Of a stretch of 64,000 bases of DNA, positions 34,185 to 55,588 are shown one piece after another (within the stretch, counting starts at the first letter, position 1; each line of letters opens with the position of its first letter). The notes beneath the pieces are model-generated. The model did not search any database and was not told the DNA's origin. It worked only from the letters and a program-made list of their open reading frames with translations. The DNA is from an uncultured Gemmatimonadales bacterium (GTDB lineage: Bacteria; Gemmatimonadota; Gemmatimonadetes; Gemmatimonadales; GWC2-71-9). The stretch covers positions 1,326,352 to 1,390,351 of the forward strand of contig CAWCFX010000001.1 in NCBI GenBank assembly GCA_963795085.1, given 5' to 3'. Both the position numbers and the translations under genes were made by a program.

Positions 34185-34269
34185 CCCTGACGGTTTATGC
34201 GTGAACGGCGTTGGCACTCCGCATGGGGCGGAGAGCCGGCGCGAAGGGGTATCCAGGCGGCTGCTAGAA
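34185..34269 (-). repeat. Decayed attC of the main array family
   Basis: CCTGACGGTTTATGCGTGAACGGCGTTGGCACTCCGCAT...GCCGGCGCGAA...TCCAGGCGGCTGCTAG aligns along its length with the family consensus. Confidence 0.7.
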
Positions 34270-34416
34270 CCGCAGCCGTGGAGATCGGAGTGGCCTGGCG
34301 GGCGCCTTCGACGCCTACTTCGAGCGTGCGACTCCCGCACCCAGGGTGCCCTGAGAGACGGGCGGTCGGCCAGGCACGGCAGGCACCGCTGCGCGAGGGT
34401 CGGGCAAACCCTCCGG

Positions 34417-36642
34417 TTACACCTGCAGGCCCACCCGGGCCAGCAGCTCCCCGTACCGCGGCGCGCCAAACTCCAGGCTCCAGAGGTTTTCCGCCCGAAG
34501 CCCGAGGGCATATGGGTCCCGGACGTCCAGGCCCCGGTGCATCCACCGGTAGAACGCGTCGCGATCGCCGAGGTGGAGGTGGAGCGTGGCGATCGCCGGG
34601 GCGCAGACGGTGGGGTCGCTCTCCGCCCGGTGTTCCAGTTCCTCCAGCACGACCCGGGCTTCCGCTTCCCGGCCCAGGCCCGCCAGGGCGCAACCGCACT
34701 TGGCGGTGGGCCAGCTGGCCCGGTGGCTGAGCGCCATGGCGCGCTCCAGCCGCTCGAGAGCCGGGGCATACTGGTGATTCGACAGGTGGATATACCCGGC
34801 GATGTGATAGCCCTCGGGGAACTGGGGATCCAGCTCGATCGGCCGCTCGGCGAGCGGGAGGGCAGCATCATACTCCCCGCGATAGGTCAGGAGGGTGGCT
34901 TCGGTCAGGAAACCCATGAACCCCAGTGGGTCGAGCCGGCGGCCTTCTTTTGCGGCCAGGGTTCCGGCCGCCGCGTCTCCCGCGAAGGCCAGGTAGAAGG
35001 CGTACATGAAATGATCGAAGTTCGCCCCGGGCTCCAGCTCGGCCGCCCGGGCCCAGAGGCGACGCGCTTCCGGCCAGTTCCAGTCGCGGTAGGTGGCCAC
35101 CGCCGCGAGCAGTGCGTGGGCCGGCCCCGAGCGCGGGTTCGCGGCCAGGGCCCGGTCGGCGAGCGACTGGATGCGGGCCCAGGCGGAGGTCGGCTCGAGG
35201 TAGCCGAAGAAGGCCGAGATCACCAGCGGTGACCCCAGCGTGGTGTAGGCCGGCGCGAAGGCGGGGTCGCGCTCCATGACCTGTTCCAGCAGCGGCGCCG
35301 CATCGGGGAGCCGCATCAGCGACTGGCCCAGCATGTGCCGGGCGCGGAGGTACAGCTCGTAGGTCTCGCTGTCCGTCTGCGGCGCGGCCCGGTCGGCCGC
35401 TTCCTCGTCGGTGAGGCGGGCCCGCAGCTCGCCCACGATGCTGCCGGAAATCCGCTCCTGCATCTCGAATACGTCCTCGATGGTCCCCCCATACTTCTCC
35501 GCCCACAGGTGGGAGTCGGTGGTGCCGTCGATGAGCTGGGCGGTGATCCGGAGCTGGGACCCGGCGCGGCGCACACTGCCTTCCAGCAGGTAGCGCACGT
35601 CGAGCATCCGGGCGACCTCCTTGAGGTCACGGGTACGCTGGTAGGCGGCGGCCGCCGAGTTCCGGGCGATGACCCGGAGGGCATTGATGCGCGACAGGTC
35701 CGCCGTGAGCTCCTCGGTCAGCCCGTCGCCGAGGTACGCGTCGTTGGGATCCGGCGAGAGGTTGTCGAAGGGAAGCACGGCGATCGAGCGTCCGCCCGCG
35801 GCATCCCGCCGCGCCGCTTCCGGGGTCCCGGCCGCGAGCAGCGCGTCGGCAAAGGCGCGGGCCGAGGGGAACCGGGCGGCGGGATCGCGGTCGAGGGCGC
35901 GGGCGATGGCCTCGTCGCACGGCTGGGGCACCTCGGCGCGGAGGGTGCGGGCCCGCGGGGCTTCGGTGGTGAACCGCTTGACCAGGATCGCCTGGTAGCT
36001 GTTCCCGGTGAAGGCCGGTTCTCCGGTGAGCAGCTCGTAGAGAATGCAGCCCAGCGCATAGACATCGGATGCCGGCCCCACGTCCGTCTCGCCGGAGGCC
36101 AGTTCGGGGCTCATGTAGGCCGGGGTCCCCAGGGACGTGCCGGCCTGGGTCAGGGCGGGCTGATCGCCGGCGCGGCGTACCTGGGCGATGCCGAAATCGG
36201 TGAGCAGGGCGTGGCCCCGGTTGATCAGGATGTTCTCCGGTTTGAGATCGCGATGGATCACGCCCTCGCCATGGGCGTACTCCAGGGCGTCCGCGATCTC
36301 CCGGATCATGCGAATCGCGGTGGCGACGTCGAGGGTCTTCTCCCTATCCAGCAGCGCGCGCAGGGACTCGCCTTCGATCAGCGGCATGACGAAGAAGAGC
36401 TGGCCGTCCAGGTCGCCGGAATCGAAGACCGGGACGATGTGGGGGTGCTGCAGCCGCGCGGCCGTTTCGATCTCCCGGAGGAACCGGTCGGCGCCGATGG
36501 TCGCGGCGATCGCGGGCAGCATGACCTTGAGCGCCACGTCGCGGCCATGCCGGGTGTCGCGCGCGCGGTGAACCACGGCCATGCCGCCCCGTCCCAGTTC
36601 GGTGGTGACCGTGTACCGCTGGGCGATCATCCCTGTCGTCAT
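34417..36642 (-). CDS. Ser/Thr protein kinase with TolB-like and TPR domains
   Basis: 'LGRGGMA', 'VALK', 'HRDLKPEN', 'DFG', 'SIAVLPFDNLS', TPRs. Confidence 0.95.
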   Translation of the reverse strand: MTTGMIAQRYTVTTELGRGGMAVVHRARDTRHGRDVALKVMLPAIAATIGADRFLREIETAARLQHPHIVPVFDSGDLDGQLFFVMPLIEGESLRALLDREKTLDVATAIRMIREIADALEYAHGEGVIHRDLKPENILINRGHALLTDFGIAQVRRAGDQPALTQAGTSLGTPAYMSPELASGETDVGPASDVYALGCILYELLTGEPAFTGNSYQAILVKRFTTEAPRARTLRAEVPQPCDEAIARALDRDPAARFPSARAFADALLAAGTPEAARRDAAGGRSIAVLPFDNLSPDPNDAYLGDGLTEELTADLSRINALRVIARNSAAAAYQRTRDLKEVARMLDVRYLLEGSVRRAGSQLRITAQLIDGTTDSHLWAEKYGGTIEDVFEMQERISGSIVGELRARLTDEEAADRAAPQTDSETYELYLRARHMLGQSLMRLPDAAPLLEQVMERDPAFAPAYTTLGSPLVISAFFGYLEPTSAWARIQSLADRALAANPRSGPAHALLAAVATYRDWNWPEARRLWARAAELEPGANFDHFMYAFYLAFAGDAAAGTLAAKEGRRLDPLGFMGFLTEATLLTYRGEYDAALPLAERPIELDPQFPEGYHIAGYIHLSNHQYAPALERLERAMALSHRASWPTAKCGCALAGLGREAEARVVLEELEHRAESDPTVCAPAIATLHLHLGDRDAFYRWMHRGLDVRDPYALGLRAENLWSLEFGAPRYGELLARVGLQV

Positions 36643-36771
36643 GGCTCACCTGTCGGGCGGTCGTGGGAAGGGGTCGGCGCCCCGGGACGGTCGAAGTTCG
36701 GCCGGTGTTCAGGCCGAGGGGGCAGGGCGTACCGCGGGGCAAGCGACGGCCGCCCCGTGGCCCGGGCGGGA

Positions 36772-37782
36772 TCAGCGGCCGTGATGGCGGGCGATCTCCT
36801 CGGCGGACAGGCGGAGGAAACGGGCCGCGTTGTGGTACAGGATATCCCGTTTCTGTGCGGTGGTCAGGAATGGCGCCTCCTCGATCACCGCGATCGCACG
36901 CTCGATGACGCCGGGCCACACCATCTGGTCTGATCCGAACATGATGCGCTTGCCAAAACCCGCGTCAACGATTCCCTGGAGGTAACGGTAGAATGCCGCG
37001 CGCGGCTGGGTATAGACAATGACGCCCACGTCCAGGTACACCTGGGGGTGCGAGTACAGCAGTGCCAGGAGATCATCCAGCAGAGGATACCCCGCATGCA
37101 TGGCATAGAGCCGCAGTCGCGGGTGCCGGACCAGCACCTCCTCCAGGGTCAGGGCGCTGTGAAGGCGGGCGCGATACTGGCCGGCACCGAGGTAGGCTAC
37201 CCCCGGTGGCCCGGGGCCGAGGTGGATACCCACCGGGAGGTCGAGTTCTTCGGCCAGCGACCAGTACGGCTCCATTCGCACGTCGTCCGGGAGTATCCCG
37301 GCATACTGGTTGGTGATCTCCCCGAGCACGTCCAGGTGGCCACCCGCGTGCAGCGCTCGCAATGAGTCTGGTGGCGGTTGCCGGGGGCCGATCTGGAACA
37401 TCAGGGCAGGGATCAGCCGCCTGGGGGCGATCCGCCGCCACTCGGCGACCCGGTCAAACGGGCCGCTCAGGACCCCGTAAATATTTCGCCGCTCCATGAC
37501 CGCAAGAGTTTCGCGCATCAGGGCTTCGTCGGTGAGCGGGGACCATACCGGGTTGGGGCAGGGAGGGTGCTTGAGCATGGCCATGAAATCGGCGCCATAG
37601 GTCCCCGCCTGATCCCAGGCCGGGAAGGGATTGATTGGCGTGCACATGCCAACCGGCGGCGATCCCTGGTGGTCCGCGCCCAACGCATGGAGATGCATGT
37701 CAATGATGGGCAGGACCGGCTCCTGGGCCCGGGCCACCTCCGCTATCAGGGCCAGGGCGAGCGCCAAACGTGTGATCCTCAT
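36772..37782 (-). CDS. Amidohydrolase_2 family protein
   Basis: 'IIDMHLH', 'MHAGYP', 'MFGSD'. Confidence 0.9.
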   Translation of the reverse strand: MRITRLALALALIAEVARAQEPVLPIIDMHLHALGADHQGSPPVGMCTPINPFPAWDQAGTYGADFMAMLKHPPCPNPVWSPLTDEALMRETLAVMERRNIYGVLSGPFDRVAEWRRIAPRRLIPALMFQIGPRQPPPDSLRALHAGGHLDVLGEITNQYAGILPDDVRMEPYWSLAEELDLPVGIHLGPGPPGVAYLGAGQYRARLHSALTLEEVLVRHPRLRLYAMHAGYPLLDDLLALLYSHPQVYLDVGVIVYTQPRAAFYRYLQGIVDAGFGKRIMFGSDQMVWPGVIERAIAVIEEAPFLTTAQKRDILYHNAARFLRLSAEEIARHHGR

Positions 37783-40156: not shown

Positions 40157-40711
40157 CTAAGGGCGCGGAACTTCGTATTGCAGCTCGGCGAACCCGGTTC
40201 CGACCTGTCTGACCGAGACCAGGCGCAGGGACGGGCTGGTGATTGCACGCGGCAGCAGGGGCTTTCCGGTACCCAGGGTGACCGAGCCGACCTGCACACA
40301 CAACTCGTCCAGCAGGCCGTGGTCGTAGAATTGTCCCGCCAGCTCTCCCCCGCCCACGATCCAGATGTTCTTGCCGCCGGCCGCAACGGCCATGTCCCGG
40401 TGCACCGGACGGACGTCCCCGCGGGCGAAGCGGATATCCCCGCCGGGCGCGGCGTGACGGGTGCGGGAACTGAATACCCAGGTGGGTTGCCGATACGGCC
40501 AGGGCTGCGGCGCACCGGCGCCGGACCCGGCGAGGTGGCGCAGCAGCCACTCGTAGGTGGCGGACCCCATGGCGAGCGCGCCGACCTCGCGAATGAAGGC
40601 CGGGTAACTGGTCGCCTCGATGTCGCCGAGGGGAAAGAGCCAGTCGAGGGAATCGTCCAGGGTGGCGATGAATCCGTCGAGGCTGGCCGCGGTGTAGTAC
40701 TGGGTCTTCAT
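40157..40711 (-). CDS. Dihydrofolate reductase-like (RibD C-terminal) protein
   Basis: 'AASLDGFIA', 'MGSATY', 'IWIVGGG'. Confidence 0.9.
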   Translation of the reverse strand: MKTQYYTAASLDGFIATLDDSLDWLFPLGDIEATSYPAFIREVGALAMGSATYEWLLRHLAGSGAGAPQPWPYRQPTWVFSSRTRHAAPGGDIRFARGDVRPVHRDMAVAAGGKNIWIVGGGELAGQFYDHGLLDELCVQVGSVTLGTGKPLLPRAITSPSLRLVSVRQVGTGFAELQYEVPRP

Positions 40712-43581: not shown

Positions 43582-43680
43582 GCGCAACGACTGCGTTCAC
43601 CGGCCGGCCGGGCTGCAGGGAACGCGATGTCCTGGGACAGCCGTACTGCCGGCCCGGCCACGTGTAACCCGGTGTTAGCC
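43582..43680 (-). repeat. attC site of a different family closing the catalase cassette
   Basis: Minus strand: GGCTAAC-N5-GTTACACG...GGTGAAC-N6-GTTGCGC; catalase TAA lies in R''. Confidence 0.75.
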
Positions 43681-45132
43681 GCCGGTGACGCCCTTGGCGA
43701 TGCGGTCGCCGATCTCCTTGTCGATGTTGCGCCAGTATGCGAACGCGCGCTGCAGCACGGGCTCGGAGACGCCGGCCTTGAGGTGCCCGACGACGTTGGA
43801 CACCAGTCGGTTGCGCGCCGCATCGTCCATGACCTTCGCGCACCAGGGCGCCGGCCTGGCCGAAGTCGTCGTCGTCCTTGTGCAGCGTGTAGGCGGCGCG
43901 GATGAACTCGCCGTCGGCTGCCCAGGTGGCCACCTCGGGATAGCGTTCGCCGTCCGCCTTCGGGCCGCCCTTCGAGTTCGGGGCGTACACCGGGTCCGAC
44001 ACGTTGTGGACCCGCATCGCGCCCGTCCTTGCTGTAGCTGTGCACCGGGCACTGCGGCGCGTTGACCGGGATCTGCTTGTAGTTGACCCCCAGGCGGTGA
44101 CGGTGGGCGTCGGCGTAGGCGAACAGCCGCCCCAGCAGCATCTTGTCCGGGCTGACACCGATCCCCGGCACGAGGTTGTTCGGTTCGAACGCCGCCTGCT
44201 CGATCTCGGTGTGGTAGTCGGTCGGGTTGCGGTTCAGCGTCAGCCGGCCGACCTCGTGCAGCGGGTAGTCGCCGTGCGGCCACACCTTGGTCAGGTCGAA
44301 GGGGTTGAAGCGGTAGGTCCTGGCTTCCTCGAACGGCATGATCTGCATCCTCAGCGTCCAGCTGGGGTGTTCGCCCCGCTTGATGGCATCGAACAGGTCG
44401 CGCCGATGGTAGTCGCCGTCCGCCCCCGCCAGCCGGTCGGCCTCCGTCCTGGGTGAGGAAGTCGATGCCCTGGTCGGTCTTGAAGTGGTACTTCACCCAG
44501 AACCGCTTGCCTGCCGCGTTGACCCACATGTAGGTGTGGCTCGAGTAGCCGTTCATGTGGCGCCAGTTCTTCGGGATGCCGCGGTCACCCATCAGCCAGG
44601 TGACCTGGTGGGCCGACTCGGGCGACAGCGTCCAGAAGTCCCACTGCATGTCGTGGTCGCGGAGGCCGTTGTCCGCACGACGTTTCTGCGAGCGGATGAA
44701 GTGCTGGAACTTCATCGGGTCACGGATGAAGAACACCGGCGTGTTGTTCCCCACCATGTCGTAGTTGCCCTCGGTGGTGTAGAACTTGAGCGCGAAGCCG
44801 CGTGGGTCACGCCAGGTGTCGGGGCTGCCGCGTTCGCCGGCCACCGTGGAGAACCGGATCAACGTGTCCGTCTTCGTGCCCGGCTGGAACACCGCGGCCT
44901 TGGTGTAGGCGCTGACATCCCTGGTCACCTCGAAGTGCCCGAAGGCTCCGAAGCCTTTCGCGTGGGGCTGGCGCTCGGGAATCCGCTCCCGGTTGAAGTT
45001 GGCCATCTGCTCGATGAGGTAGTGGTCCTGCAGCAGAATGGGTCCATCGGGCCCGACGGTCAGCGAGTGTTCGTCGCTGGAAACCGGGATCCCGGCATCG
45101 GTCGTCGTGGGCTTGGCGCCGTCCTGTGTCAT
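43675..45132 (-). CDS. katA: Monofunctional heme catalase with three +1 frameshifts (sequencing error or pseudogene)
   Basis: '[13 protein letters not shown]', '[13 protein letters not shown]', 'VGNNTPVFF', '[11 protein letters not shown]'; shifts near 44445, 44022, 43836. Confidence 0.9.
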
Positions 45133-45166
45133 GCTCAATCTCCCGTGAAATCGCGGTGGGACCGGA

Positions 45167-45264
45167 GCGATGCGGCTCGCGGTGTGGGTGGCATTCGCGC
45201 TCCACGCCTCCTGGTGTCCCGCTGGTGGCGTGGCGCGAATGGCCACTGCAGGCGCGTACCAGGC
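45167..45264 (-). repeat. Decayed attC of the main family (type B) between DUF5661 and catalase
   Basis: GTGGCATTCGCGCTC...TCCTGGTGTCC...GGCGCGAATGGCCACT.CA.GCGCGT matches the 60196/60619 copies; both core sites mutated. Confidence 0.85.
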
Positions 45265-45538
45265 GCGCCTGGACGTCCAATACGCATCTGCCTCTGCTTC
45301 AAGCTTGTCGAGGCGAGAGTAGTAGTCGGCGAATTCCTTGAGGTGAGCCCCGGCAATCTTTCCCGTGAGGATCAGGTCATCGTTCGTGACATCCTTGTCC
45401 GGATCCCGCGCGCCATGTTCCAGCTCAAACTTCAAGGCCGCGGCGAAACTGCTCAGGGTCGACCACCTTCCAATCTAACCCCAAACTGTCACCAACGTGC
45501 TTCCCCTCGTCAGCGCTGATCATGCGTGTTGTGGCCAT
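45259..45538 (-). CDS. DUF5661 family protein with a frameshift near 45428; stop codon lost
   Basis: '[13 protein letters not shown]...[27 protein letters not shown]'. Confidence 0.8.
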
Positions 45539-45569: not shown

Positions 45570-45629
45570 ACCCGGCGGTGGGCGCGTGAGCGGCATTCGG
45601 GGTCACACGGGCGAGGCACGCGTGATGCC
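45570..45629 (-). repeat. Decayed, internally deleted attC
   Basis: ACCCGGCGGTGGGCGCGTGAGCGGCATTCGGGGTCA matches the family arm at 28 of 36 positions; lies just upstream of the DUF5661 start. Confidence 0.6.
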
Positions 45630-45830
45630 TTGCGCGTGCGGCGGCCAGCGCAGACGGAGGGGGGGCACGAATGGCGATGACGGGGCGGCTTCGTCTGCCT
45701 GCGCCAACCGGCCAGGCCTCGTCGACACGCTGCTTGCCCTTGCGCAGTGACACCCGGTACGTTGCCTTCTAAGGTGCCCGGGTGTCGGTCGGATGCAAGC
45801 CGGGGATCCCGGATGACCTGGGAGGCAGGC

Positions 45831-46313
45831 ATGAAGAAGTGGGTGAGACGCATCCGCGGCGCCATCGGGACGGGACTGACCTGGGCCGCGGCATGGTTCG
45901 GCGCGGGGATGATCATGTTGCTGGGGTCTCTGCTGGTCACCGGCAGTACCGGCGCCGACGTCCCCTACCCCCTGGGGTTTGGGGCCTTCGGCTTCGTCGC
46001 CGGCGTCGCCTTCTCAGGTATTCTGAGCCTTGCCGAGGGACGTCGCCGGTTTCACCAGATGTCCATGTCCCGCTTCGCGGGGTGGGGGGCGGCCGGTGGT
46101 TTCCTGCTGTCCGCGATCCTCGTCGTGGCCGTGGCCCTTGGGGAGGACCCGGGCTTCCTCGGAAACCTCGTGGTGCTGGGCCCCATCTTCGCGGTGGCGG
46201 GCGCGGGTTCTGCCGCGGGTTCGCTGGCCCTGGCCAGAAGGGCCGAAGACCGGGCCTTGCCGAAGGCCAGTGACGGCGAGACCGGGGGCGGGTCGTCTGA
46301 AGGAGAGCCATGA
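45831..46313 (+). CDS. Membrane hypothetical protein
   Basis: GGAGG RBS; four TM segments. Confidence 0.8.
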   Translation: MKKWVRRIRGAIGTGLTWAAAWFGAGMIMLLGSLLVTGSTGADVPYPLGFGAFGFVAGVAFSGILSLAEGRRRFHQMSMSRFAGWGAAGGFLLSAILVVAVALGEDPGFLGNLVVLGPIFAVAGAGSAAGSLALARRAEDRALPKASDGETGGGSSEGEP

Positions 46314-46452: not shown

Positions 46453-46857
46453 CTAGGCACCTTTGTTCTTCTCGTCCCAGAGCTTCGGCTCCCAGAGTTC
46501 GACCTTGTTCCCGTCTGGATCCATGATCCATGCAAACGTGCCGTTCGCGTCCGCATCCGGTCCGCCGACGATGTCCACGCCACCAGCACGGAGCTGCTCC
46601 AGCAGTTCGCCGAGGTTGTCGACCCGGTAGTTGATCATGAACGACGACGTGCTCGGGCTGAACCACTTGCTGTCCTTGCCCGCGACATGCCATACCGTGA
46701 GGCCGTGATCCTCGGCCTTGTCGTCCGGCCACTTGAGAATGGCGCCGCCAAAGTCTTCCAGCCGCAAGCCCAGGTGTTTCCGATACCATTCGGCCAGTGC
46801 CGCGTGGTCGCCCGTGCTCTTGAAGAAGACGCCGCCGATACCAGTAACCCTCGCCAT
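46453..46857 (-). CDS. VOC/glyoxalase family protein
   Basis: 'RVTGIGGVFFK', 'FMINYRV', 'DPDGNKVELWEP'. Confidence 0.92.
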   Translation of the reverse strand: MARVTGIGGVFFKSTGDHAALAEWYRKHLGLRLEDFGGAILKWPDDKAEDHGLTVWHVAGKDSKWFSPSTSSFMINYRVDNLGELLEQLRAGGVDIVGGPDADANGTFAWIMDPDGNKVELWEPKLWDEKNKGA

Positions 46858-46880: not shown

Positions 46881-46975
46881 CGTTAACAGTCGTGCGCCTG
46901 AGCGCCGTTCGCTTCACCCAATGACTGGCGGTCCTGGCAGCCGCAGCCGAACGTGGCTCCGGGCGGATGGCCGCC
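46881..46975 (-). repeat. Heavily decayed attC
   Basis: TAACAGTCGTGCGCCTGAGCGCCGTTCGC...TGGCGGTCC...CGAA...CTCC is colinear with the consensus; lies just upstream of the VOC start. Confidence 0.5.
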
Positions 46976-47078
46976 CTGAGCCTGCTCGACCGCCGTCGCC
47001 GACCAGGCGAGAAAGCCGGTGACCACGTCCTCCCGTACGCTCGCGCCTGCCCGTTTCACCTGCCTGGTGCCAGGCAGC

Positions 47079-47510
47079 CTACGCCGTCACGTCACGGCCT
47101 GGCGGCCGGTAGATGAGGGCAATGACGATACCCGAGCCGACCCATTGCAGGAAATAGGCGACGGCCTGGAGCAGGGCCAGCCGGAGCCCGATGTTCAGGC
47201 TCACGTAGTTGTGCAGCATGAACGAGCCCGCGGTGAAGACGCCGACCAGGACGCCAAAGCGGAGCCCCTGGGTGAGAACGGGGCCCTCGCGAAAGGCGAG
47301 GGCGTAGAGCGCGGCGAGCGCCATCATCGCGATGAGCAGGGCCACCATCCCGACCGGTGCCACCCGCTGCATGGACTCCGGCGGGCGGTACACGGCCGTA
47401 TACTGGCGGACTTCGTCGGCCAGGGGCAGGACGGCGAAGAGCAGGAAGCCGATCGCAAAGTACGCGACGGTGGCACCCAGGCCGGCGAGCGCAATGCGGG
47501 AGAAGTTCAG
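47079..47510 (-). CDS. Membrane protein; start codon appears as CTG
   Basis: Frame open from CTG 47510 (LNFSRIALAGLG...), in-frame TGA at 47522; four TM segments. Confidence 0.7.
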   Translation of the reverse strand: MNFSRIALAGLGATVAYFAIGFLLFAVLPLADEVRQYTAVYRPPESMQRVAPVGMVALLIAMMALAALYALAFREGPVLTQGLRFGVLVGVFTAGSFMLHNYVSLNIGLRLALLQAVAYFLQWVGSGIVIALIYRPPGRDVTA

Positions 47511-47919
47511 GGGTTCGTCTCACGCTTGACGGTGACAGGTGGTCGAGCGAGCGTCCTGCGGCGAACGCCGGCGAGCCCGCCGCTTCCGACAGCACCGGCA
47601 TGCGACGGCCGCGATGCCCGGGTAGCCGGTGTCCTCAGAACGTCGCCCGCCCGTTGGTGACCACCCGCAGCACCGACTGCTGGGGAAGCGGGCCTCATAC
47701 GGGTCGATCACCGCTGCACAGGCACGCCTGCTGTCCCCCGGGGAGCGCATCGCATGGCTGTCGCTTCGCGTCGAACCACCGGCTCATCGCGTTCGGATCA
47801 GCCATCAGGGGGCCTCAGGCTGTGTCGATTCTGGGGCTTGGCGTGGCAAGAAATCTGGGGTCGCTGCTCGGGGCTGGCAAGGTAGCGGTGGGTATGGTCT
47901 AGTCGCCCCGGTCCGGGTC

Positions 47920-49128
47920 TCACAGGTAGCTCAGCCACGCGTCGCTTCGCCGCCGCTTGACCGCCGCGAACCACCGGCAGGCCGGGTACATCGCGACCAC
48001 GACGGCCGCCCACACCAGGTAAACCACGGGCAGCGAGTAGCCCCACCCGGGTGGCGGGCTGAAGGGATAGTGCGCCAGGTCCGGGGACTCGAACATCCAG
48101 TGGGCGGAGCCGTAGCGCACGTAGCAGGTGAGGACGGCGAGCAGGTGGATGAATGCAAAGTGCAGGATATAATAGAAGAGCGGCACCTTGCCGATGATGA
48201 GCGCGGGGCGAAGCATGCGGGGAGTGCCCCGGTCCACGGCCCAGAGGAGGAGCATCGCCGGCCCCAGCGTCATCAGCAGGAACAGGAGCGACGGCGGGTA
48301 CTTGGTGGTATTGAGGAACGAGAGCACGGTAAATGCCACCTTCGGTTGCATCGCCCATGGAGCGGCATCACCGTAGATGTTGAGTGCGCGAAGCGCGACG
48401 AACGCCGCGCTCAGGCCCAGGCCCAGCCGCAGGAGGAAGGTGCGGCGGCGGTCGCTCGCCCAGCCGTAGACCCATCCCAGGCCGTACCCGACGGCGGTGA
48501 CCCCGATCCAGGGAATTAACGGATAGGCGGCAAACACGACATGCCCAGGGCTATTGAGCACGAAGCCGGGAACGTGCAGGATGGTCCAGACCGGGTTCGC
48601 GAACTGGGCGCCGTCGAGGAGGTTGTGACCGGCGATCATGACGAGCCCGATGGCCACCACCGCGCCAACCGGCAGCCGTACCAGGGCCGCGAGCGCGATC
48701 ATCGCCCAGCCGAGCGCCCACAGCACCAGGAGCATCGTCACCCGGTAGTCCACGTTGAACTGGTACGCCAGGCATCGGAGCACCACGATCTCCAGGAAAA
48801 TCAGCCAGAGGCCCCGGGTGAAGAGGAACCGGGAGAGTTCGGCCGGGGTCTTCCGCCGGAGCGACAGGCTGGCACCGGTTCCCGTGAGCAGGAAGAAGAC
48901 CGGGGCGCAGATGTTGGTCACCCAGCGGGTAGCAAACAACGCGGGCGAAGTCGTGGCCAGGTCGGTTGGGTTCGCGCCCGGCATTCCGAAGAAGTCCCGG
49001 GTGTGATCCAGCGCCATGATGATCATGATGATGCCCCGCACCACGTCCACCGACTCCAGGCGGTGGGTCGCGGGAGGGGCGGCACCGACGGCTGACTCCG
49101 AATCTATTGCCTGCGCGTTGAAGGCCAT
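47920..49128 (-). CDS. DUF1624 / HGSNAT-like membrane protein
   Basis: 'SVDVVRGIIMIIMALDH', 'KYPPSL'. Confidence 0.9.
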   Translation of the reverse strand: MAFNAQAIDSESAVGAAPPATHRLESVDVVRGIIMIIMALDHTRDFFGMPGANPTDLATTSPALFATRWVTNICAPVFFLLTGTGASLSLRRKTPAELSRFLFTRGLWLIFLEIVVLRCLAYQFNVDYRVTMLLVLWALGWAMIALAALVRLPVGAVVAIGLVMIAGHNLLDGAQFANPVWTILHVPGFVLNSPGHVVFAAYPLIPWIGVTAVGYGLGWVYGWASDRRRTFLLRLGLGLSAAFVALRALNIYGDAAPWAMQPKVAFTVLSFLNTTKYPPSLLFLLMTLGPAMLLLWAVDRGTPRMLRPALIIGKVPLFYYILHFAFIHLLAVLTCYVRYGSAHWMFESPDLAHYPFSPPPGWGYSLPVVYLVWAAVVVAMYPACRWFAAVKRRRSDAWLSYL

Positions 49129-49159: not shown

Positions 49160-49756
49160 CTACGCCCGGCGGACAGGGTAACGCAGGTGGGTAACGCCGA
49201 CGCCCGGCGTCACGGCCGGAGTGCCCAGGCTGATGGGCGGGCCGGCGAGGCGGTCGAAGAGTCGCACGCCGGAGCCAAGAAGAACCGCCGCGATATCGAC
49301 GTGGATCTCGTCGAGGAGGCCGGCGTTGAGGCACTGCTGGATGGTGTCAGCCCCGTGGACTCCCACGGATTTTCCCGCGGCGGCGGCCTTGGCTTGGCTC
49401 ACGGCGCTTGCGATCCCGTCGGTCACGAACTGGACCGTCGAGCCGGGGCGCGGCCATCCCGCGGGGACGTGGTGGGTAAGCACGAAGGCCGGTCCCCAGG
49501 CATGATTGCCGCCCCAGCCTTGGGCGACCTCGAAAGTGCGCCGGCCGGTAAGCACCGCCCCGAGTTCGGACCAGAGTCCGCGGAGGTGCCCGGCGCTCGG
49601 CCCGGACACCTTGAACGTCATGGGGTCAGACCCTCCGGTCTGGAAGGCGACGTCTCCCGAGGAGAAGTACCAGTCGAACACCGCGGCCACCCCGTCGTTG
49701 CGGTCGGCGACGTAGCCGTCAAGCGACATGGACATGATGGCGACAACCTTCGACAT
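49160..49756 (-). CDS. Dihydrofolate reductase-like (RibD C-terminal) protein
   Basis: 'MSMSLDGYVA', 'GRRTF', 'GLLDEIHV'. Confidence 0.9.
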   Translation of the reverse strand: MSKVVAIMSMSLDGYVADRNDGVAAVFDWYFSSGDVAFQTGGSDPMTFKVSGPSAGHLRGLWSELGAVLTGRRTFEVAQGWGGNHAWGPAFVLTHHVPAGWPRPGSTVQFVTDGIASAVSQAKAAAAGKSVGVHGADTIQQCLNAGLLDEIHVDIAAVLLGSGVRLFDRLAGPPISLGTPAVTPGVGVTHLRYPVRRA

Positions 49757-49785
49757 TCTGACGTTCCCTGGTGTGGGGGCGTGGG

Positions 49786-50157
49786 TCATCGGGCCGGGCT
49801 GCCGAACGTCATGCGGTGGCCGTCCGGGGTCTGCAGCGCAAACTCCCGCATGCCCCAGGGCTTGGTCACGGGCGGGACCCGGACCGGTGCCCCGCGGGCA
49901 GAGAGCTCGGCGTACAGGGCGTCGATGTCGTCGACCGTGACATAGGCAACATACGAATGGTCCCCCAGCTCGCTCGCCGGCACGGAGTCGATGCACTCGC
50001 CCAGGCCGACCCGGAAGTTGTCCCGGGAGAGCCAGCTCCAGCCGTCCGACTCATCACCAAAGTCTCGCTGGAAACCGAGAGTGTTCAGATAGAAATCGGT
50101 GGCGGTCCGAAGGTTGCGAACCGCCAGGATGAGCCGTATTCCTTCGAATCGAGCCAT
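49786..50157 (-). CDS. VOC/bleomycin-resistance family protein
   Basis: 'FYLNTLGF', 'PWGMREFALQTPDGH'. Confidence 0.9.
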   Translation of the reverse strand: MARFEGIRLILAVRNLRTATDFYLNTLGFQRDFGDESDGWSWLSRDNFRVGLGECIDSVPASELGDHSYVAYVTVDDIDALYAELSARGAPVRVPPVTKPWGMREFALQTPDGHRMTFGSPAR

Positions 50158-51003: not shown

Positions 51004-51123
51004 GGGTTGATGTCCCCGCATCAGCGGCAGGGCGCGGAGTGTTTCGGGGGACGTACCCGGCGGACACAGGCCTTGCCAGCCTGGCCGCCGGCCGAGCGCG
51101 GACGGCTGCATGCGGTGGTTCCG
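51004..51123 (-). repeat. Probable decayed attC of another family
   Basis: Minus strand AAC-CACCG-CATGCAGC...GCTGATG-CGG inverted arms with one extra base; core GTT lost. Confidence 0.5.
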
Positions 51124-51187
51124 AGGTATCGGCGTAACGGGGCATACGTGCGGCACCCATCCGGAAGAGCGAGAAAAGTTCCGGATA

Positions 51188-52129
51188 CTAGCGAGAGAGA
51201 AGCAGTCCGGCGCCCGTGCCAGCTGACATCAGGACGAAGCCGAGGAGGGTCCAGGCTTGTGCGGGGATGATCTCCTTCGTCGTGTCGGGCTGGGCCAGGA
51301 GGCGGCGGGCGGCAAGAGCGACCGGGGGGAGGCCAATGAAACCCAGCGCCGTGAGTGCCGGCAACCCGGTGACCGGGAGAAGCGCCAGGAGCAGGAAAGC
51401 CGCCGTGACGATCGCGGCGAAACCGCGGGCCGACCACTTCCGCCCGAGGATGACCACCAGCGTTCGTTTCCCGGCTTCGCGGTCAGCGCGGCGATCAGGA
51501 AACTCGTTGATCAAGAGAAACGCACCGATGAGAAGCGCGAGCGGCATCGAGAGGAGGGCTGTCTCTGGCGTGAGGTGGTGTCGTTGGACAAGGTAGGTCC
51601 CGGCGGTGATGAGCGGTCCATAGACCAGGGCGACCGTGAGTTCCCCCAGGCCCCGGTACGCGAGCTGGAAGGGGGGAGCGTGGTAGAAGAATGCGAGGGC
51701 GACACCGACAACGCCGACCCAAAGGATCCCCGGTTCCCGCCACAGCACGATCCCGATCCCGCAGGCGATTCCCCCGGCGTAGAGGAGGGCCGCCATGATG
51801 ATCGTCTGGCGCCGAGTCATCAGGCCGTCCACCAACACCCGTTTGCCTCCGGAAAAGGGGCTCCGATCCTGCTCGGTCACGCCTCTGTCCGTGCCCGAAT
51901 CCCAGTCAAAGACCTCTCCAGAGGTGTTCTTGGCAGCCTCGAGAAGGAAGATCCCGACGATGGTCCAGGCGAGCCAGATGAGGCTGATAGTGCCGTCCCG
52001 CGCGGCGGCGGAGAATCCCAGCCAGATCGAGGACATCGAGGCCAGGGTGATCTTCGGGTCCGCCACCCGGGAGAACCCCTTCCTGTAACTGGAAGGCGGA
52101 GCCAGGTTCACGCCACCCCCAGTGGTCAA
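51188..52129 (-). CDS. menA: UbiA-family prenyltransferase (MenA-like)
   Basis: 'NTSGEVFDWDSGTD', 'SPFSGG', 'LAYRGLGE', 'NEFPD...D...GKRTL'. Confidence 0.85.
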   Translation of the reverse strand: MTTGGGVNLAPPSSYRKGFSRVADPKITLASMSSIWLGFSAAARDGTISLIWLAWTIVGIFLLEAAKNTSGEVFDWDSGTDRGVTEQDRSPFSGGKRVLVDGLMTRRQTIIMAALLYAGGIACGIGIVLWREPGILWVGVVGVALAFFYHAPPFQLAYRGLGELTVALVYGPLITAGTYLVQRHHLTPETALLSMPLALLIGAFLLINEFPDRRADREAGKRTLVVILGRKWSARGFAAIVTAAFLLLALLPVTGLPALTALGFIGLPPVALAARRLLAQPDTTKEIIPAQAWTLLGFVLMSAGTGAGLLLSR

Positions 52130-52186
52130 ACCGGAGTCCGGATCGTCACCGCCGATCCAGTCAGCGGGCCGACACCGTGGTAAGCC

Positions 52187-52280
52187 GCCGAACGGTTTGC
52201 GGAGTGGAATGCGCGCTCATCGTGTCCCAACATCCGGCAGGTGAGCCGGCACGGAATGAGACGCCACTCGCCGGTCAGGC
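52187..52280 (-). repeat. Decayed attC of the main family
   Basis: GCCGAACGGTTTGCGGAGTGGAATGCGCGCTCATCGTGTC...GAATG...GCCACTC...GTCAGGC. Confidence 0.8.
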
Positions 52281-52287
52281 GGCCGCC

Positions 52288-52776
52288 CTAGGTACGAGGG
52301 CGAAGTGTCTCATGCTCGAACACGATCGCCAGGCCGGAATCCACCGCGACGAGCAGGGCGGCGTAGATGTAGGGCACCGTGTCCCGCTGTCCGGCACCTT
52401 GCCACCGGAAACCGCCGGTGACGATCACCTGGTCCGCGCCAATGGCGTCGAACGTCAAACCCTCCCAGGCGAAGAAGGCGGGAGGAGACCACGGCCCCCG
52501 GTACCTCGCATCAAGCTCGGCCCGGGTGGACCGGCGGGCCACGCCATTGAAGACGACGAGGGCGCCCTCCGGGTGGTAGAACCCGGCGATGGCGTCCCGG
52601 CGCGGCGTGGCCAGGGCGGACCCGTACGCCTCGTAGTGGGCCGCCGCGGCAGCCCGGAGATCCATCGGGGGGCCGTCTCGCCGGGGTGCCGGAGTCGCGC
52701 CCGGAGCGCAGGCCGCGGCGAGCAGGGCGAGAGCCATGAGGGTCATCCCGAAGCGATGGGTCAGGAGGGTCTCCAT
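52288..52776 (-). CDS. NTF2-like lipoprotein; former cassette gene
   Basis: Lipobox 'AAAC'; flanked by two decayed attCs with near-complementary ends. Confidence 0.75.
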   Translation of the reverse strand: METLLTHRFGMTLMALALLAAACAPGATPAPRRDGPPMDLRAAAAAHYEAYGSALATPRRDAIAGFYHPEGALVVFNGVARRSTRAELDARYRGPWSPPAFFAWEGLTFDAIGADQVIVTGGFRWQGAGQRDTVPYIYAALLVAVDSGLAIVFEHETLRPRT

Positions 52777-52784
52777 TCAAGGCT

Positions 52785-52836
52785 GCCTGGCGGTTGGCGC
52801 CGGAGCGGCCGATCAGGGTCTTTCCGGCGCGAATGG
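52785..52836 (-). repeat. Decayed, internally deleted attC
   Basis: GCCTGGCGGTTGGCGCCGGAGCGGC...CCGGCGCGAATGG, within 10 bp of the downstream start codon. Confidence 0.6.
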
Positions 52837-53067
52837 GTGAATATTGAACCTGGCACTGCGGCACCGCGAATGTCGCGTCATCCGGGGCCGAGGGCGACGC
52901 CGCCGGCCGCTCGTAAGGTGGAGGGGGAGCGCGGGAGCCGCAATTGGGGCACGGGTGAGGGCGCCAGTCCGGGACGTCGGTGCCCCCAATGGGCCGCACC
53001 GAGTGGCGTGCCGGGGGACATGGGTAGCACCGGTCTCGCAAGAGGAGGTAGAAGTGCCCGCCAACGG

Positions 53068-53646
53068 CTAGCCAGCACTTGACCCAGTGAAGCGGGGGAG
53101 CCGGTTCCTGGTCGCTGCAACGTGGTGGCGTGCGTGGTACAGCGTGAAGTAGATCATCTCGCGAGCGGTGATCTTCCCCAGTAACGGATGGGGCAGCAAG
53201 ATCATATTCAGCTCCTTCTCGTTCCACGACGCTAGCGCCTTCTGAAGCCGATCGTTTGCCCGGTGCCAGCGTGCGAGCAACTCGCGACGACGGGCATCGC
53301 CCTGGGATGTCGGCAGGTCATGGCGATTGGGAACGAATGGCGCGGAGGCGCGACCGCCCGCAGCCAGCCGGAGAAGATAGTCATCCCGTAGTGCAGGGTA
53401 GCTACGTCCGGAACTCCGGGATCGACCGAATCGAATACGCAGGACAATCCGCGGAACTGCGAAACCCCTCGCCACCGCGCTCACCGCAGAAGTGAGATGG
53501 GCCAGCTGCTCGGCGGCGGTCCAGGCGCTGTCCGCCCGCATGACGAGTTCCTCTGGAGTGAGCGAAGCAAAGAAATCTGCAACGTCCACTTCCGAAGCAG
53601 ATAAGGCCGATATCAGGTTTTCGCGAGTCCAGTGCTCGGTTTGCAA
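53068..53646 (-). CDS. DinB family protein
   Basis: GAGGA RBS and TTG; 'WTAAEQLAHL', 'PHPLLGKIT', 'YHARHH'. Confidence 0.88.
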   Translation of the reverse strand: MQTEHWTRENLISALSASEVDVADFFASLTPEELVMRADSAWTAAEQLAHLTSAVSAVARGFAVPRIVLRIRFGRSRSSGRSYPALRDDYLLRLAAGGRASAPFVPNRHDLPTSQGDARRRELLARWHRANDRLQKALASWNEKELNMILLPHPLLGKITAREMIYFTLYHARHHVAATRNRLPRFTGSSAG

Positions 53647-53681
53647 GGAATCCTCAGGGTCGATGGACGTTCTCACAGTGC

Positions 53682-53775
53682 GGCTGACGGGGTTCGCTTG
53701 GCTGGCCATCGGGCTCGGCGTATGGGGCGTCCCGCGGGAAGCGGCGCGGTTGGCCGGTCCAGGCGCGTGTTAGGT
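53682..53775 (-). repeat. Decayed attC of the main family
   Basis: GGCTGACGG...TATGGGGCGTCC...GGCGCGGTTGGCCGGTCCAGGCGCGTGTTAGGT. Confidence 0.85.
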
Positions 53776-54213
53776 GGCGCCAAGCTGCCGTGCCTCAATG
53801 CGGCTCGCTATCGCCTGGGCGATGGCACTGGCCAAAGGGCGGTGCCGGCGGTGAATCCGCAAACTGAGTGTGACGCCGCGCACCCCCGGCACCCCGTCGA
53901 AGGCCTCTCTCTCGCGCGCTCGCAAGTCCAGACGGGGCGACCACCAACCCCCGACGACCCACGCGCCGGCAATACATTCGCTCGGCAACTCCAGCCAATC
54001 CGGCGGGAGCTCATTCACCTCGGTGCCAACGCGGTCAAGCGACACCTGCTGGACCGTCTGGACTTCGGCCCATTCGAGCGTAAGGCCCTGCTCGGTCACA
54101 CGAAGGATACCGTCCGCTCGGTGGCTGACCGACTCGATTCCCCTGAACCCCATGGTGTCCCATCCCGGGCGCTTGAGACGAAACGGCAGTGGGTCAAGGC
54201 GCGGACTAGACAA
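53770..54213 (-). CDS. Cassette hypothetical protein
   Basis: ORF fills the cassette; TAA in R''. Confidence 0.75.
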   Translation of the reverse strand: MSSPRLDPLPFRLKRPGWDTMGFRGIESVSHRADGILRVTEQGLTLEWAEVQTVQQVSLDRVGTEVNELPPDWLELPSECIAGAWVVGGWWSPRLDLRAREREAFDGVPGVRGVTLSLRIHRRHRPLASAIAQAIASRIEARQLGAT

Positions 54214-54261
54214 AAGCGGTCCCCGGTGTTGGTGGTGAGGCGAAGGGGGTGGCTCGGCGCC

Positions 54262-54369
54262 GCCTGACGAAACGCGCTTTAGCTGCGGCCTGCGGCGGCC
54301 GCAGACAAGATAGACCCGTTCGCTCTCAGGCGGACGCCGCGGGCCGACAGCTTCAAGCGCTGGTTAGGC
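54262..54369 (-). repeat. attC of a different family (R' = GTCAGGC)
   Basis: GCCTAAC-N5-CTTGAAGC...GCTAAAG-N8-GTCAGGC with long inner inverted arms. Confidence 0.85.
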
Positions 54370-54732
54370 AGCGGCATTCCATGCCTCTTCAAGCCATCGA
54401 CGGGCGTGGGCATCTAGGTCGGCCTTCGAACGGAGTTCAAGATGGTGCATGAATCGCCCGGGCGCTGGCTGGACGACTTGCTTCCAGCGGCGGGACCGGT
54501 CGCGGCGTTGCAGGGCGATCGAGAGCACCAAGGGAGGACGTTTGCCGCGGAGGTACTGGGCGGGGACCCAGACCCAGGCAAAGGCGCGGCGGCGTCGGAA
54601 CGCGACCTGACTCCTGGTGACCCGGATGCCTGTGGGCCCAATGCCTAAGAGGAGCTCCTGAACTCGGTCGAATAGCGGCCGCGAGGCGGGGTACCGAGAG
54701 AAGAACTTGTCAATCGACGTTGACGGGGTCAT
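54364..54732 (-). CDS. Cassette DUF5655-like protein
   Basis: 'TRSQVAFRRRRAFAWVW', 'RFMHHLEL'; TAA in R''. Confidence 0.8.
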   Translation of the reverse strand: MTPSTSIDKFFSRYPASRPLFDRVQELLLGIGPTGIRVTRSQVAFRRRRAFAWVWVPAQYLRGKRPPLVLSIALQRRDRSRRWKQVVQPAPGRFMHHLELRSKADLDAHARRWLEEAWNAAA

Positions 54733-54792
54733 TTCGCAGCTTCCCGCGACTTGTAACGAGCCGAATACCAAGGGAGATAGCGGCTTGCTGCT

Positions 54793-54889
54793 GCATAACG
54801 GTTTGCGCTTGAGTGGCAACCGCGCTGATCATGTCTCAGCGTCCATCGGGCGGTCTGGCGCGAATGGCCACTCCAAGCGCGTGTTAACA
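54793..54889 (-). repeat. attC (main family, mosaic)
   Basis: 97-bp copy. Confidence 0.92.
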
Positions 54890-54894
54890 GCAGC

Positions 54895-55461
54895 TTAGCA
54901 GGAGGCTAGCTGAGCGGGGCTGCGGCATAAAGCGATCCTATCAGACTTCATCTGACCCGAGGATGAGGCAAACGTAACCCGCGTCAGTGGACGCTGTGTT
55001 TTGAAAATGTGCTTTTGCTCGTTGAACCGAATCGCGAGTTGGCCTGGCATGGACCAGTCGACAGATAAGACCGTCGTATCACCTACAGCCGGAGGAGACT
55101 GGATCTCCACACGGTCGGTCGGAGTACTACCCACTAAGTAAATCATACGCGCTATCATGGGACGGTTTTTCGTTGGGAACGCCATTTGAAGTAGAATCGC
55201 TTCACTGGAATCACCGAGAATGACACTGAAAAGTGGACTCCACTCGGGGTTATGTCGCAATGCCCCTACGACAAGGTGAGCGTCCAAATGGGTGGCTGGG
55301 GTGAGGTCTTCAATGGTCCAGTTAGAAAAGTGTCCCTCTGGGGTGTCCAGGTCGAACGAGAACGAGCTGAGCCCGATGCTTGTTGATGCCTGCCCGGCCA
55401 GAGGAGTAGAAATGGCAGCGACCGTCAAGATCCAGAGGATACCGGCGCTTAGCGGGCGCAT
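54895..55461 (-). CDS. Cassette secreted hypothetical protein
   Basis: GAGGAG RBS, signal peptide, beta-rich. Confidence 0.75.
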   Translation of the reverse strand: MRPLSAGILWILTVAAISTPLAGQASTSIGLSSFSFDLDTPEGHFSNWTIEDLTPATHLDAHLVVGALRHNPEWSPLFSVILGDSSEAILLQMAFPTKNRPMIARMIYLVGSTPTDRVEIQSPPAVGDTTVLSVDWSMPGQLAIRFNEQKHIFKTQRPLTRVTFASSSGQMKSDRIALCRSPAQLASC

Positions 55462-55491
55462 GAGATATCTCCTCAAAGAGGGTGTGCTGCT

Positions 55492-55588
55492 GCTTGACGG
55501 TGTGCGCTTGAGCGGCAACCGCGCTCAGCATATGGGGGCGTCCAGCGGGTAGCCGGGCGCGGTTGACCGCTCCAAGCGCGTGATAGGC
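55492..55588 (-). repeat. attC (main family) with both core triplets mutated
   Basis: R'' GCCTATC, R' GTCAAGC. Confidence 0.9.

What the first reader, a model, noticed from the sequence alone, without database searches (positions are those of the whole stretch)
34185..55588. Fossil integron tail: decayed attC sites form an age gradient extending ~20 kb beyond the obvious array
Seen: copies of the main attC family decay broadly leftwards: 55492 (core mutations), 53682, 52785, 52187, 46881, 45570, 45167, 34185. Other-family attCs occur at 54262, 51004 and 43582. Most sit a few to tens of bp upstream of a start codon. Cassette-end complementarity survives at 33944/34191, 52274/52791 and 53769/54268. 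Known: new cassettes enter at attI, so distal ones are oldest. Inference: a snapshot of cassettes being locked in and turned into ordinary chromosomal genes, which standard attC finders would probably miss.
Basis: partly seen in the sequence, partly recalled or inferred. Interest (0 to 1): 0.85.

Follow-up and report, generated by a model that had tools for sequence, protein, structure and literature searches.

The report
Eroding far end of integron arrays
Beyond the working part of this bacterium's gene-capture array lies a trail of worn-out recombination sites around genes that were once mobile cassettes, and most related bacteria examined show the same wear at the same far end, a visible stage of captured genes losing their mobility.

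Summary
Real, and more general than claimed. The window is the attI-distal end of a chromosomal integron (intI lies on the next contig; the join is inferred). Nine of the 11 named sites pass at least one genome-calibrated test; 46881 and 51004 are borderline. All lie on the array strand, their stems are broken without compensation, and the repeat occurs in four clusters, not scattered like a REP. Here the decay is a step: 0.89-1.0 identity down to 54.8 kb, then a 0.62-0.78 plateau with no trend, and a 9-kb gap before 34185. Six of 15 tail genes have homologues beside attC sites elsewhere (0 of 17 comparison genes). Across 16 arrays of the order, recombination boxes are intact in 235/266 proximal versus 145/275 distal sites (8 of 9 arrays picked blind). 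'Locked in' is supported; 'ordinary chromosomal genes' only partly: two tail genes are frameshifted and the tail is not shared with four congeners. Cury 2016 proposed this stage for CALINs; I found no paper measuring its distal polarity. The scan had earlier noted eroded arrays in other Gemmatimonadales genomes.

The parts
55595..64000 (-). Distal part of the intact cassette array: 14 complete main-family attC sites plus one cut by the contig end; low-GC cassette ORFs (GC3 0.54-0.67) and some ORF-less cassettes
55490..55591 (-). attC, 96% identical to array copies, but both core triplets changed (2 of its 4 changes)
54895..55461 (-). Cassette ORF, 188 aa, no Pfam; a 29% homologue lies inside the intact array of G024
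54791..54892 (-). Last main-family attC with intact cores and boxes; the edge of the step
54364..54732 (-). DUF5655 cassette ORF; cassette ends complementary (11 of 13)
54260..54372 (-). attC of another family, nearly intact hairpin (z -4.9), R' core changed
53770..54213 (-). Cassette ORF; 85% homologue in G061 starts 50 bp after an attC of 56 bits; ends complementary (53769/54268)
53680..53778 (-). Decayed main-family attC (78%), fold no better than shuffles; right half identical in a short-read contig of a public run
53068..53676 (-). DinB_2 family ORF starting just after the 53682 site; its own attC is not recognisable
52785..52810 (-). R' arm only (half-site), 9 bp before the DUF4440 start
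52288..52776 (-). DUF4440-like ORF; 72% homologue in G267 also keeps an R''-like end
52185..52283 (-). Decayed main-family attC (71%)
51188..52129 (-). UbiA prenyltransferase family gene; 0 of 3 homologues beside an attC
51004..51127 (-). Probable decayed attC of another family (L boxes pair, R boxes lost); borderline
49786..50157 (-). Glyoxalase/VOC gene with no detectable attC here; 82% homologue in G178 has attC sites of 55 bits on both sides
49160..49756 (-). RibD_C (dihydrofolate-reductase-like) gene; 1 of 11 homologues lies between two attC sites
47920..49128 (-). HGSNAT-like membrane gene; 0 of 7 homologues beside an attC
47079..47513 (-). DUF1761-like ORF beginning with CTG; 81% homologue in G310 starts 39 bp after an attC of 75 bits; a possible further remnant at 47510-47640 is weak
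46881..46981 (-). Decayed main-family attC; borderline alone, supported by homologues of the next gene
46453..46857 (-). Glyoxalase/VOC gene; 81-83% homologues start 23-24 bp after attC sites of 86, 64 and 26 bits
45831..46313 (+). Antisense membrane-protein gene; homologues are also antisense beyond the arrays of G024 and G234
45570..45644 (-). Decayed main-family attC, mainly the R' arm
45265..45524 (-). DUF5661 gene with one frameshift; homologue in G234 lies between attC remnants
45165..45267 (-). Decayed main-family attC (76%), inner stem kept (z -3.3), both R boxes lost
43675..45132 (-). Catalase gene with three single-base insertions against an 89% identical homologue; its stop codon lies in the R'' box of the 43582 site
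43582..43680 (-). attC of canonical 5/6 spacing with intact AAC/GTT triplets and paired L boxes, weak overall fold (z -1.2)
40157..40711 (-). RibD_C gene in the remnant-free gap; 80% homologue in G150 lies between attC sites of 72 and 64 bits
34417..43549 (-). Gap without attC remnants: kinase-TPR, amidohydrolase, beta-lactamase-family, GYD and unknown genes, all co-oriented with the array
34185..34267 (-). Isolated, shortened main-family attC remnant, 14 bp before a start codon
33943..34171 (-). 75-aa membrane ORF; its stop lies in a 9-nt complement of the 34185 end

Best explanation
This is the old, attI-distal end of a sedentary chromosomal integron. Shown: an intact IntI and an attI-like junction exist on contig C2, the sites have attC anatomy, they decay without compensation and drift towards host GC, several tail genes occur as cassettes in other genomes, and most arrays of the order are worn at the same end. 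Inferred: cassettes enter at attI and are pushed outwards; those between working attC sites keep turning over and stay uniform; once the attC of a far cassette is hit by point mutation or deletion it can leave only together with a working attC further out, and at the far end there are few or none, so dead sites pile up there (a distal ratchet). The frozen DNA then ages like any accessory DNA: sites erode, deletions remove attCs and whole cassettes, some genes persist and approach host codon use, others become pseudogenes, and unrelated DNA or later cassettes are inserted. The result is a step or mosaic rather than a smooth clock.
For: IntI 375 bits against cut-off 265; first cassette on C2 has complementary ends at an attI-like junction. 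Site scores and nulls. Stem changes 64 one-sided, 16 two-sided, 3 compensatory; AT->GC 54 vs GC->AT 32. Homologues next to an attC of at least 25 bits: 8 of 73 loci and 6 of 15 genes for 40-55 kb, against 0 of 67 loci (13 genes) left of 33 kb and 0 of 29 (4 genes) from a control region; Fisher p 0.001 by loci, 0.006 by genes. GC3 rises with distance (rho 0.80, n 30) and the tail copy has higher GC3 than its attC-flanked homologue in 6 of 6 genes. Boxes intact in 235/266 proximal and 145/275 distal sites, proximal higher in 14 of 16 arrays, 8 of 9 of those picked blind; the other side of intI is nearly empty (2 hits in 6 stretches of about 21 kb). Median spacing widens from 0.55-0.8 to 1.0-1.1 kb past the step. 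Converse case: a cassette intact here (57287) has decayed attCs in congener G004, where no intI over the cut-off was found.
Against: The C1-C2 join is not shown. No trend within the tail. Near-intact sites lie beyond decayed ones (43582 here; a 103-bit site at 47 kb in G024; interleaving in G150, G151, G154), which a strict ratchet does not predict. G033 shows no worn end and G296 none up to its contig end. Core triplets are not clearly hit more than loop positions (29/108 vs 38/189, p 0.2), so there is no sign of targeted inactivation. Homologues of catalase (0/7), HGSNAT (0/7), UbiA (0/3), GYD (0/4) have no attC. The GC3 pairs compare different hosts. No recombination or expression data.
Confidence: 0.72

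Rival explanations
1. Plain ageing without a ratchet: no site turns over much; the uniform array is simply the latest burst of cassette gain, laid down in front of the remains of earlier bursts. The step marks the time between bursts.
For: Step then plateau in G000, G024, G023; near-intact sites beyond dead ones; a 99.8% identical duplicate cassette and repeated ORF-less cassettes point to recent expansion; a slight decline already inside the array (rho -0.35, p 0.04).
Against: The worn end recurs in 14 of 16 arrays, more regular than independent bursts need give; the two models are not exclusive and the data here cannot separate them.
Confidence: 0.3
2. The tail is an accessory-gene hotspot into which single cassettes or short runs were inserted off-target (attG-type or attC x attC insertion) and then decayed, like the three other clusters of this genome; it never was the continuation of this array.
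For: Three integrase-less clusters of the same family elsewhere, one spread over 25 kb of co-oriented small genes; the 9-kb gap and the isolated 34185 site; co-oriented small accessory genes continue to 1.3 kb with no attC-linked homologues; Loot et al. show insertion outside att sites.
Against: All remnants share the array's strand and lie only on the distal side, here and in relatives; cassette-end complementarity runs unbroken from 55492 through 54793 and 54262 to 53682. Likely true for 34185 and perhaps catalase, not for 45-55 kb.
Confidence: 0.2
3. The low-scoring sites are working attC sites of foreign families, or sequencing errors, not decayed copies.
For: 54262 and 43582 are indeed of other families and near-intact; the assembly has few contigs and could carry long-read errors.
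Against: Changes are non-compensatory and the R boxes are lost; folds are no better than shuffles for 53682, 52785; a short-read contig matches 53726-53876 without a difference; at most 1 frame split in 69 conserved genes, 20,096 aligned residues; the box test does not depend on family.
Confidence: 0.05
4. A REP/MITE-like intergenic repeat scattered by its own transposase.
For: Palindromic, intergenic, present at four places.
Against: No copy outside four single-orientation clusters; attC boxes, an IntI and cassette-end complementarity are present.
Confidence: 0.02

Closest known systems
Sedentary chromosomal integron with inverted (co-oriented) integrase, as in Treponema (Cury et al. 2016, PMC4889954, passages read; Wu et al. 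2013, PMC3607928, passages read)
   Same: IntI over the TIGR02249 cut-off, attI-like junction, long array of uniform attC sites, low-GC promoterless cassettes, ORF-less cassettes, intI on the cassette strand.
   Different: A worn distal tail of 10-20 kb; three genes and a spacer between intI and attI (3.7 kb); attC with an 8-nt L'-R' spacer and bottom-strand extrahelical C and A/G instead of the typical G and T (Nivina 2020, PMC7439510, passages read).
CALINs with very degenerate attC sites, proposed as an intermediate between capture and definitive stabilisation (Cury et al. 2016)
   Same: Degenerate attC sites around genes that have lost IntI-based mobility; three such clusters exist in this genome.
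   Different: Here the degenerate sites continue an apparently working integron, have a polarity, and were counted across 16 arrays; in the passages read the paper states the idea without positional data.
Cassette de-recruitment and domestication (Boucher et al. 2006, PMC1382264, section 7 and passages read; Loot et al., bioRxiv 2022.09.11.507474, passages read); fused cassettes (PMC8876359, passages read)
   Same: Cassette genes become sedentary after loss of attC; homologues occur both as cassettes and as ordinary genes.
   Different: Those cases concern insertion outside the integron or single attC deletions; here immobilisation happens in place at the far end of the array.
Integrase inactivation freezing whole arrays (Xanthomonas, bioRxiv 2025.06.18.660453, abstract and passages read; Treponema phagedenis, PMC3607928)
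   Same: Cassettes become static and erode.
   Different: The integrase here is full length with no internal stop; only the distal sites are dead.

Membership tests
Complete integron (sedentary chromosomal) | Integron integrase (IntI) in the genome | tested here: met
   TIGR02249 375.4 bits, cut-off 265, positions 1-313 of 315, no stop; Phage_integrase and SAM_4 domains.
Complete integron (sedentary chromosomal) | IntI physically linked to the array in the window | tested here: inconclusive
   Window ends C1 inside an attC; C2 begins inside a cassette with 21 more sites of the same family and strand, then attI and intI. The join is inferred; no contig bridging it was sought beyond the window end (one search covers the window only).
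Complete integron (sedentary chromosomal) | attI at the head of the array | tested here: inconclusive
   At about C2:11790 the first cassette starts with a 12-nt complement of its own R'' end, with no hairpin before it, and a similar junction precedes the first cassette in G007. No attI model exists to score it.
Complete integron (sedentary chromosomal) | Integrase-mediated excision and insertion | not testable with these tools
   No raw reads; laid contigs show no cassette-skipping joint in the array, which shows nothing either way.
attC site (array copies, 54793, 54262, 43582) | AAC/GTT triplets in R boxes, paired L boxes with an extrahelical base, central spacer, bottom-strand hairpin | tested here: met
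   Box scan; fold z -5.35 for 59656 and -4.86 for 54262. 54262 has one changed core base; 43582 folds weakly.
attC site (array copies, 54793, 54262, 43582) | Extrahelical bases typically G and T on the bottom strand (Nivina 2020) | tested here: not met
   Main family has C and A (or G) on the bottom strand (alignments); the paper says 'typically', so this marks a variant, not a non-member.
attC site (decayed tail copies) | Intact R boxes and full stem | tested here: not met
   Core triplets changed in 55492, 53682, 52187, 45167; 6-18 of 23-24 stem pairs kept in the 7 copies from 53682 leftwards. They are relics, not working members.
Gene cassette (tail genes) | Single ORF between an R' end and its complementary R'' end | tested here: inconclusive
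   Met for DUF5655, 53770, DUF4440 and the 75-aa ORF; not shown by the ungapped test for DinB, UbiA, glyoxalase 46453, DUF5661, catalase, 43227.
Gene cassette (tail genes) | Homologue found as a cassette elsewhere | tested here: met
   6 of 15 genes at 40-55 kb; 9 of 15 not (duplicates removed).
CALIN | At least two attC sites, no intI nearby | tested here: inconclusive
   True of the window as assembled and of three other clusters; false for the window if C1 joins C2.
REP/MITE | Many copies dispersed over the genome in either orientation | tested here: not met
   (150 of 4,210 candidates scored).

The most novel reading that the evidence does not exclude
In this order the integron works as a conveyor belt that builds long accessory regions: cassettes are pushed past the last working attC, lose their sites entirely and persist, so that the 50-100 kb tracts of small co-oriented accessory genes distal to the arrays (here 1.3-55 kb) are largely integron-derived. 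The integron's share of the accessory genome would then be several times what attC counts give. In favour: such tracts follow the arrays of G000, G024 and G026, remnants reach 80 kb from intI in G024, and a DUF5661 gene that has attC remnants here and in G234 lies 86 kb from intI in G024 with none seen. Against: 0 of 67 homologue loci of genes left of 33 kb lie beside an attC.
Probability: 0.25. Interest if true: 0.78.

Novelty: new variant of a known kind. Interest (0 to 1): 0.55.

Why it matters
How cassettes leave the mobile pool is an open point of integron biology: loss of attC function was proposed as the route to stable genes, with little positional evidence. An order in which 173 of 301 sampled genomes carry an IntI and most long arrays end in a worn tail gives a natural series, from intact cassette to gene without trace, for the same gene families. 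It also means that array sizes and cassette catalogues based on general attC models stop early and undercount integron-derived genes. The mechanism itself (mutation, deletion, amelioration) is unsurprising, and the functions found are ordinary.

Tried and rejected
Rfam gave no match in the window. PADLOC gave no match for 23 cassette and tail proteins. Sigma-70-type promoter scan of 43.0-55.6 kb: 0 sites, so own promoters for tail genes are neither shown nor excluded. Selective inactivation of the core triplets: not supported against loop positions (p 0.2), weak against stems (p 0.04). My first end-complementarity test failed on known cassettes and was replaced by an anchored one, in which the two control probes were set two bases off. 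By eye the DinB cassette has a gapped end complement at 53066; the ungapped test does not support it (p 0.95). Extension of the fossil to 1.3-33 kb: no remnants and no attC-linked homologues; genes at 19.4-33 kb were not searched for homologues. Searching tail genes against a 131-kb pool of intact arrays gave too few hits to compare zones. Orientation relative to replication could not be read from the weak GC skew of six contigs. Sequencing runs: three DNA runs with 5-6% of the words, contigs only, no RNA holder listed; much of the depth is catalase of other organisms. The fold-based 'strict' site finder missed many intact sites and was replaced by the box scan. dN/dS of 0.06-0.25 against homologues reflects long-term selection across lineages, not selection in this tail, and is not used as proof of domestication. 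Left out: G081 (contig ends 3.4 kb after intI), the second intI of G228, and G027, G033:C2, G234, G032:C4 (4-14 sites, sparse, no fetched intI or a second locus of a genome already counted); G027, G033:C2 and G234 show no significant trend. Supplements were not consulted; those of the bioRxiv papers were closed and could hold positional data.

Full report
Setting. The window is the last 64 kb of contig C1 of a 3.89-Mb, six-contig genome. Earlier notes of the scan call the organism a Gemmatimonadales member; I did not test that name. The right-hand 9 kb holds a repeat of about 98 bp every 0.4-0.7 kb. Twenty-one more copies follow at the start of contig C2, on the same strand, then an attI-like junction near C2:11790, a cupin, a PLP decarboxylase, an AraC gene, a spacer, and an intact integron integrase on the cassette strand (375 bits, cut-off 265). 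The C1-C2 join is inferred.

The sites. I built a covariance model from 19 array copies and a general one from 111 sites of relatives and of the other clusters of this genome; no tail copy was in either. With the first, 55490 scores 107 bits, 54791 96, 45165 44, 54260 38, 52185 34, 53680 32; 46883 and 43586 are at chance level. A weight matrix of the R' arm gives 34185 17.6, 52785 17.4 and 45570 15.4, reached by 1, 1 and 7 of 7.6 million positions outside the attC regions. A profile HMM on 9,962 intergenic tiles puts 34185 and 45571 above every outside hit and 46885 level with 6. 43582 belongs to another family: it has AAC, a 5-nt spacer, paired L boxes with an extrahelical base, a 6-nt spacer and GTT, a pattern met once outside the attC regions. 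54262 is near-intact (67 bits); 51004 is borderline (E 0.22). So 9 of 11 named sites pass at least one calibrated test; several tests were tried per site, which flatters the weakest (52785, 45570). Nothing comparable was found on the other strand or left of 34 kb. The family is not scattered: whole-genome scans place all clear copies in the array and in three integrase-less clusters, C1:621.7-627.2 kb, C1:1096.4-1098.2 kb and C6:416-441 kb.

Decay, not diversity. Against their nearest array copy, 9 tail copies show 64 one-sided and 16 two-sided stem breaks and 3 compensatory changes. Substitutions run AT->GC 54 to GC->AT 32, as expected for drift to the composition of a 67% GC host; misaligned positions would push the same way. 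53682 and 52785 fold no better than shuffles, while 59656 gives z -5.4. A short-read contig of a public run matches 53726-53876 exactly, so that decay is not a long-read error.

Shape. Identity stays at 0.89-1.0 over 35 array sites, is 0.96 and 0.94 at 55492 and 54793, then falls to 0.62-0.78 with no trend (rho -0.14, n 7; random DNA gives a median of 0.58 in this alignment). A step between 54.8 and 53.7 kb fits far better than a line. Better-kept sites (45167, 43582) lie beyond worse ones, and 34185 is 9 kb from the next. This is a frozen mosaic, not a clock.

The genes. I searched 150-300 genomes of the order with tail DNA and proteins, fetched flanks of the best homologues and scanned them with the general model. 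For 40-55 kb, 8 of 73 homologue loci (6 of 15 genes) lie within 250 bp of an attC of at least 25 bits; for genes left of 33 kb 0 of 67, for a control region 0 of 29. The loci were the top hits listed, not all hits. The glyoxalase at 49786 has no site left here but is a complete cassette in G178; the RibD gene at 40157, inside the gap, lies between two attCs in G150; the glyoxalase at 46453 starts 23-24 bp after attCs in three genomes and after visible remnants in others. Catalase, HGSNAT, UbiA and GYD have no attC-linked homologue. GC3 rises from 0.54-0.67 in the array to 0.77-0.90 left of 53 kb (host median 0.86; frameshifted and antisense genes left out), and in 6 of 6 pairs the tail copy exceeds the attC-flanked homologue, in different hosts. 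Fates differ: catalase has three single-base insertions and DUF5661 one, against at most 1 split in 69 conserved genes, and four congeners (64-94% complete) share only two genes of 34-54 kb apart from the kinase family. The tail is accessory DNA, immobilised but not fixed.

Relatives. 173 of 301 genomes of the order have an IntI over the cut-off. Genome-specific HMMs show low-scoring sites on the array strand past the intact run in G024 (20 sites, 39-80 kb from intI), G026, G023, G014 and briefly G032, none in G033; six stretches on the other side of intI hold 2 hits. I then took nine more arrays blind, by integrase E-value among genomes of at most 10 contigs: scores fall with distance in five (p<=0.002), nearly in three, not in one that runs to its contig end. 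A family-independent box test gives 235 of 266 proximal and 145 of 275 distal sites intact, 14 of 16 arrays in this direction (p 0.004; blind set 147/173 vs 95/177, 8 of 9). Kin are not independent, so the p values overstate. G023 and G014 have no intI in the stretch; their polarity comes from the attC orientation.

Mechanism (inferred). Excision needs the cassette's own attC and a site upstream (for the reactions). A cassette with a dead attC inside the array can still leave with the next working site; at the far end it cannot. Dead sites therefore gather distally while the proximal part is renewed. Near-intact sites beyond dead ones show that this ratchet is leaky, or that later cassettes land in the tail, or that the array grew in bursts; my data do not separate these.

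Prior work. Cury et al. [quoted passage not shown] Boucher et al. 2006 described de-recruitment after non-specific insertion, Loot et al. domestication by attC deletion, and integrons are known in Gemmatimonadota. Ten full-text searches and passages of 11 papers showed no description of a distal, polar erosion of attC sites; most subscription papers are not in the library. Earlier agents of this scan saw eroded arrays in single Gemmatimonadales genomes and called them ordinary.

Verdict. A real fossil tail of a known kind of element, with a step rather than a gradient, partly domesticated and partly dying genes, and an order-wide polarity that I did not find in print. New variant of a known kind; interest 0.55.

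Noticed in passing
G000 C2:11790-16487 (L016): intI is on the cassette strand and 3.7 kb from the attI-like junction; AraC, PLP decarboxylase, cupin and a ~750-bp low-complexity spacer lie between. In the arrays examined in relatives intI is co-oriented too, with the first attC usually about 1 kb away.
   Followed up: partly
window 55490-64000 and arrays of relatives: The L'-R' spacer of attC is 8 nt in most arrays of the order (36 of 36 boxed sites here, 52 of 53 in G024; 7 nt in some), with a G as first extrahelical base on the top strand; a 5-6 nt spacer is the recalled norm.
   Followed up: partly
G000 C2:2533-11284 (L016): Proximal cassettes look ORF-less and several are near-copies of one another; already reported by the scan (e1-7604772).
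   Followed up: no
G000 C6:416450-441362, C1:621741-627224, C1:1096417-1098165: Three integrase-less clusters of the same attC family; the C6 one has one good site followed by six worn ones over 25 kb of mostly co-oriented small genes, a second fossil tail.
   Followed up: partly
window 61715-62270 and C2:941-1495: The same cassette twice, 99.8% identical, the window copy with one extra base.
   Followed up: partly
window 57287-57850 and L053 (G004): An intact cassette here has an 81% identical homologue with decayed attCs on both sides in a congener where no intI was found.
   Followed up: yes
window 46453-46857: This glyoxalase clade (67-84% identity, 14 of 150 genomes) is found in every stage from intact upstream attC to no trace, and the copies without trace tend to have the highest GC3.
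   Followed up: partly
window 45831-46313: A membrane-protein gene antisense to the array here and in the distal regions of G024 and G234.
   Followed up: partly
window 1300-33900: 29 of 33 genes share the array's strand; many are small accessory types (cupins, GNATs, glyoxalase, thioesterase, DUF1801, beta-lactamase family) with no attC trace.
   Followed up: yes
window 19507-19899: Short tandem repeats of 22 and 64 bp in a long intergenic stretch.
   Followed up: no
window 29174-33026: ECF-type sigma factor, a 208-aa protein and a CHAT-TPR protein in a row.
   Followed up: no
window 43675-45132: Catalase 89% identical in DNA to a gene of another genus (G230) yet with three frameshifts: a recent arrival already decaying, or local sequence errors.
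   Followed up: partly
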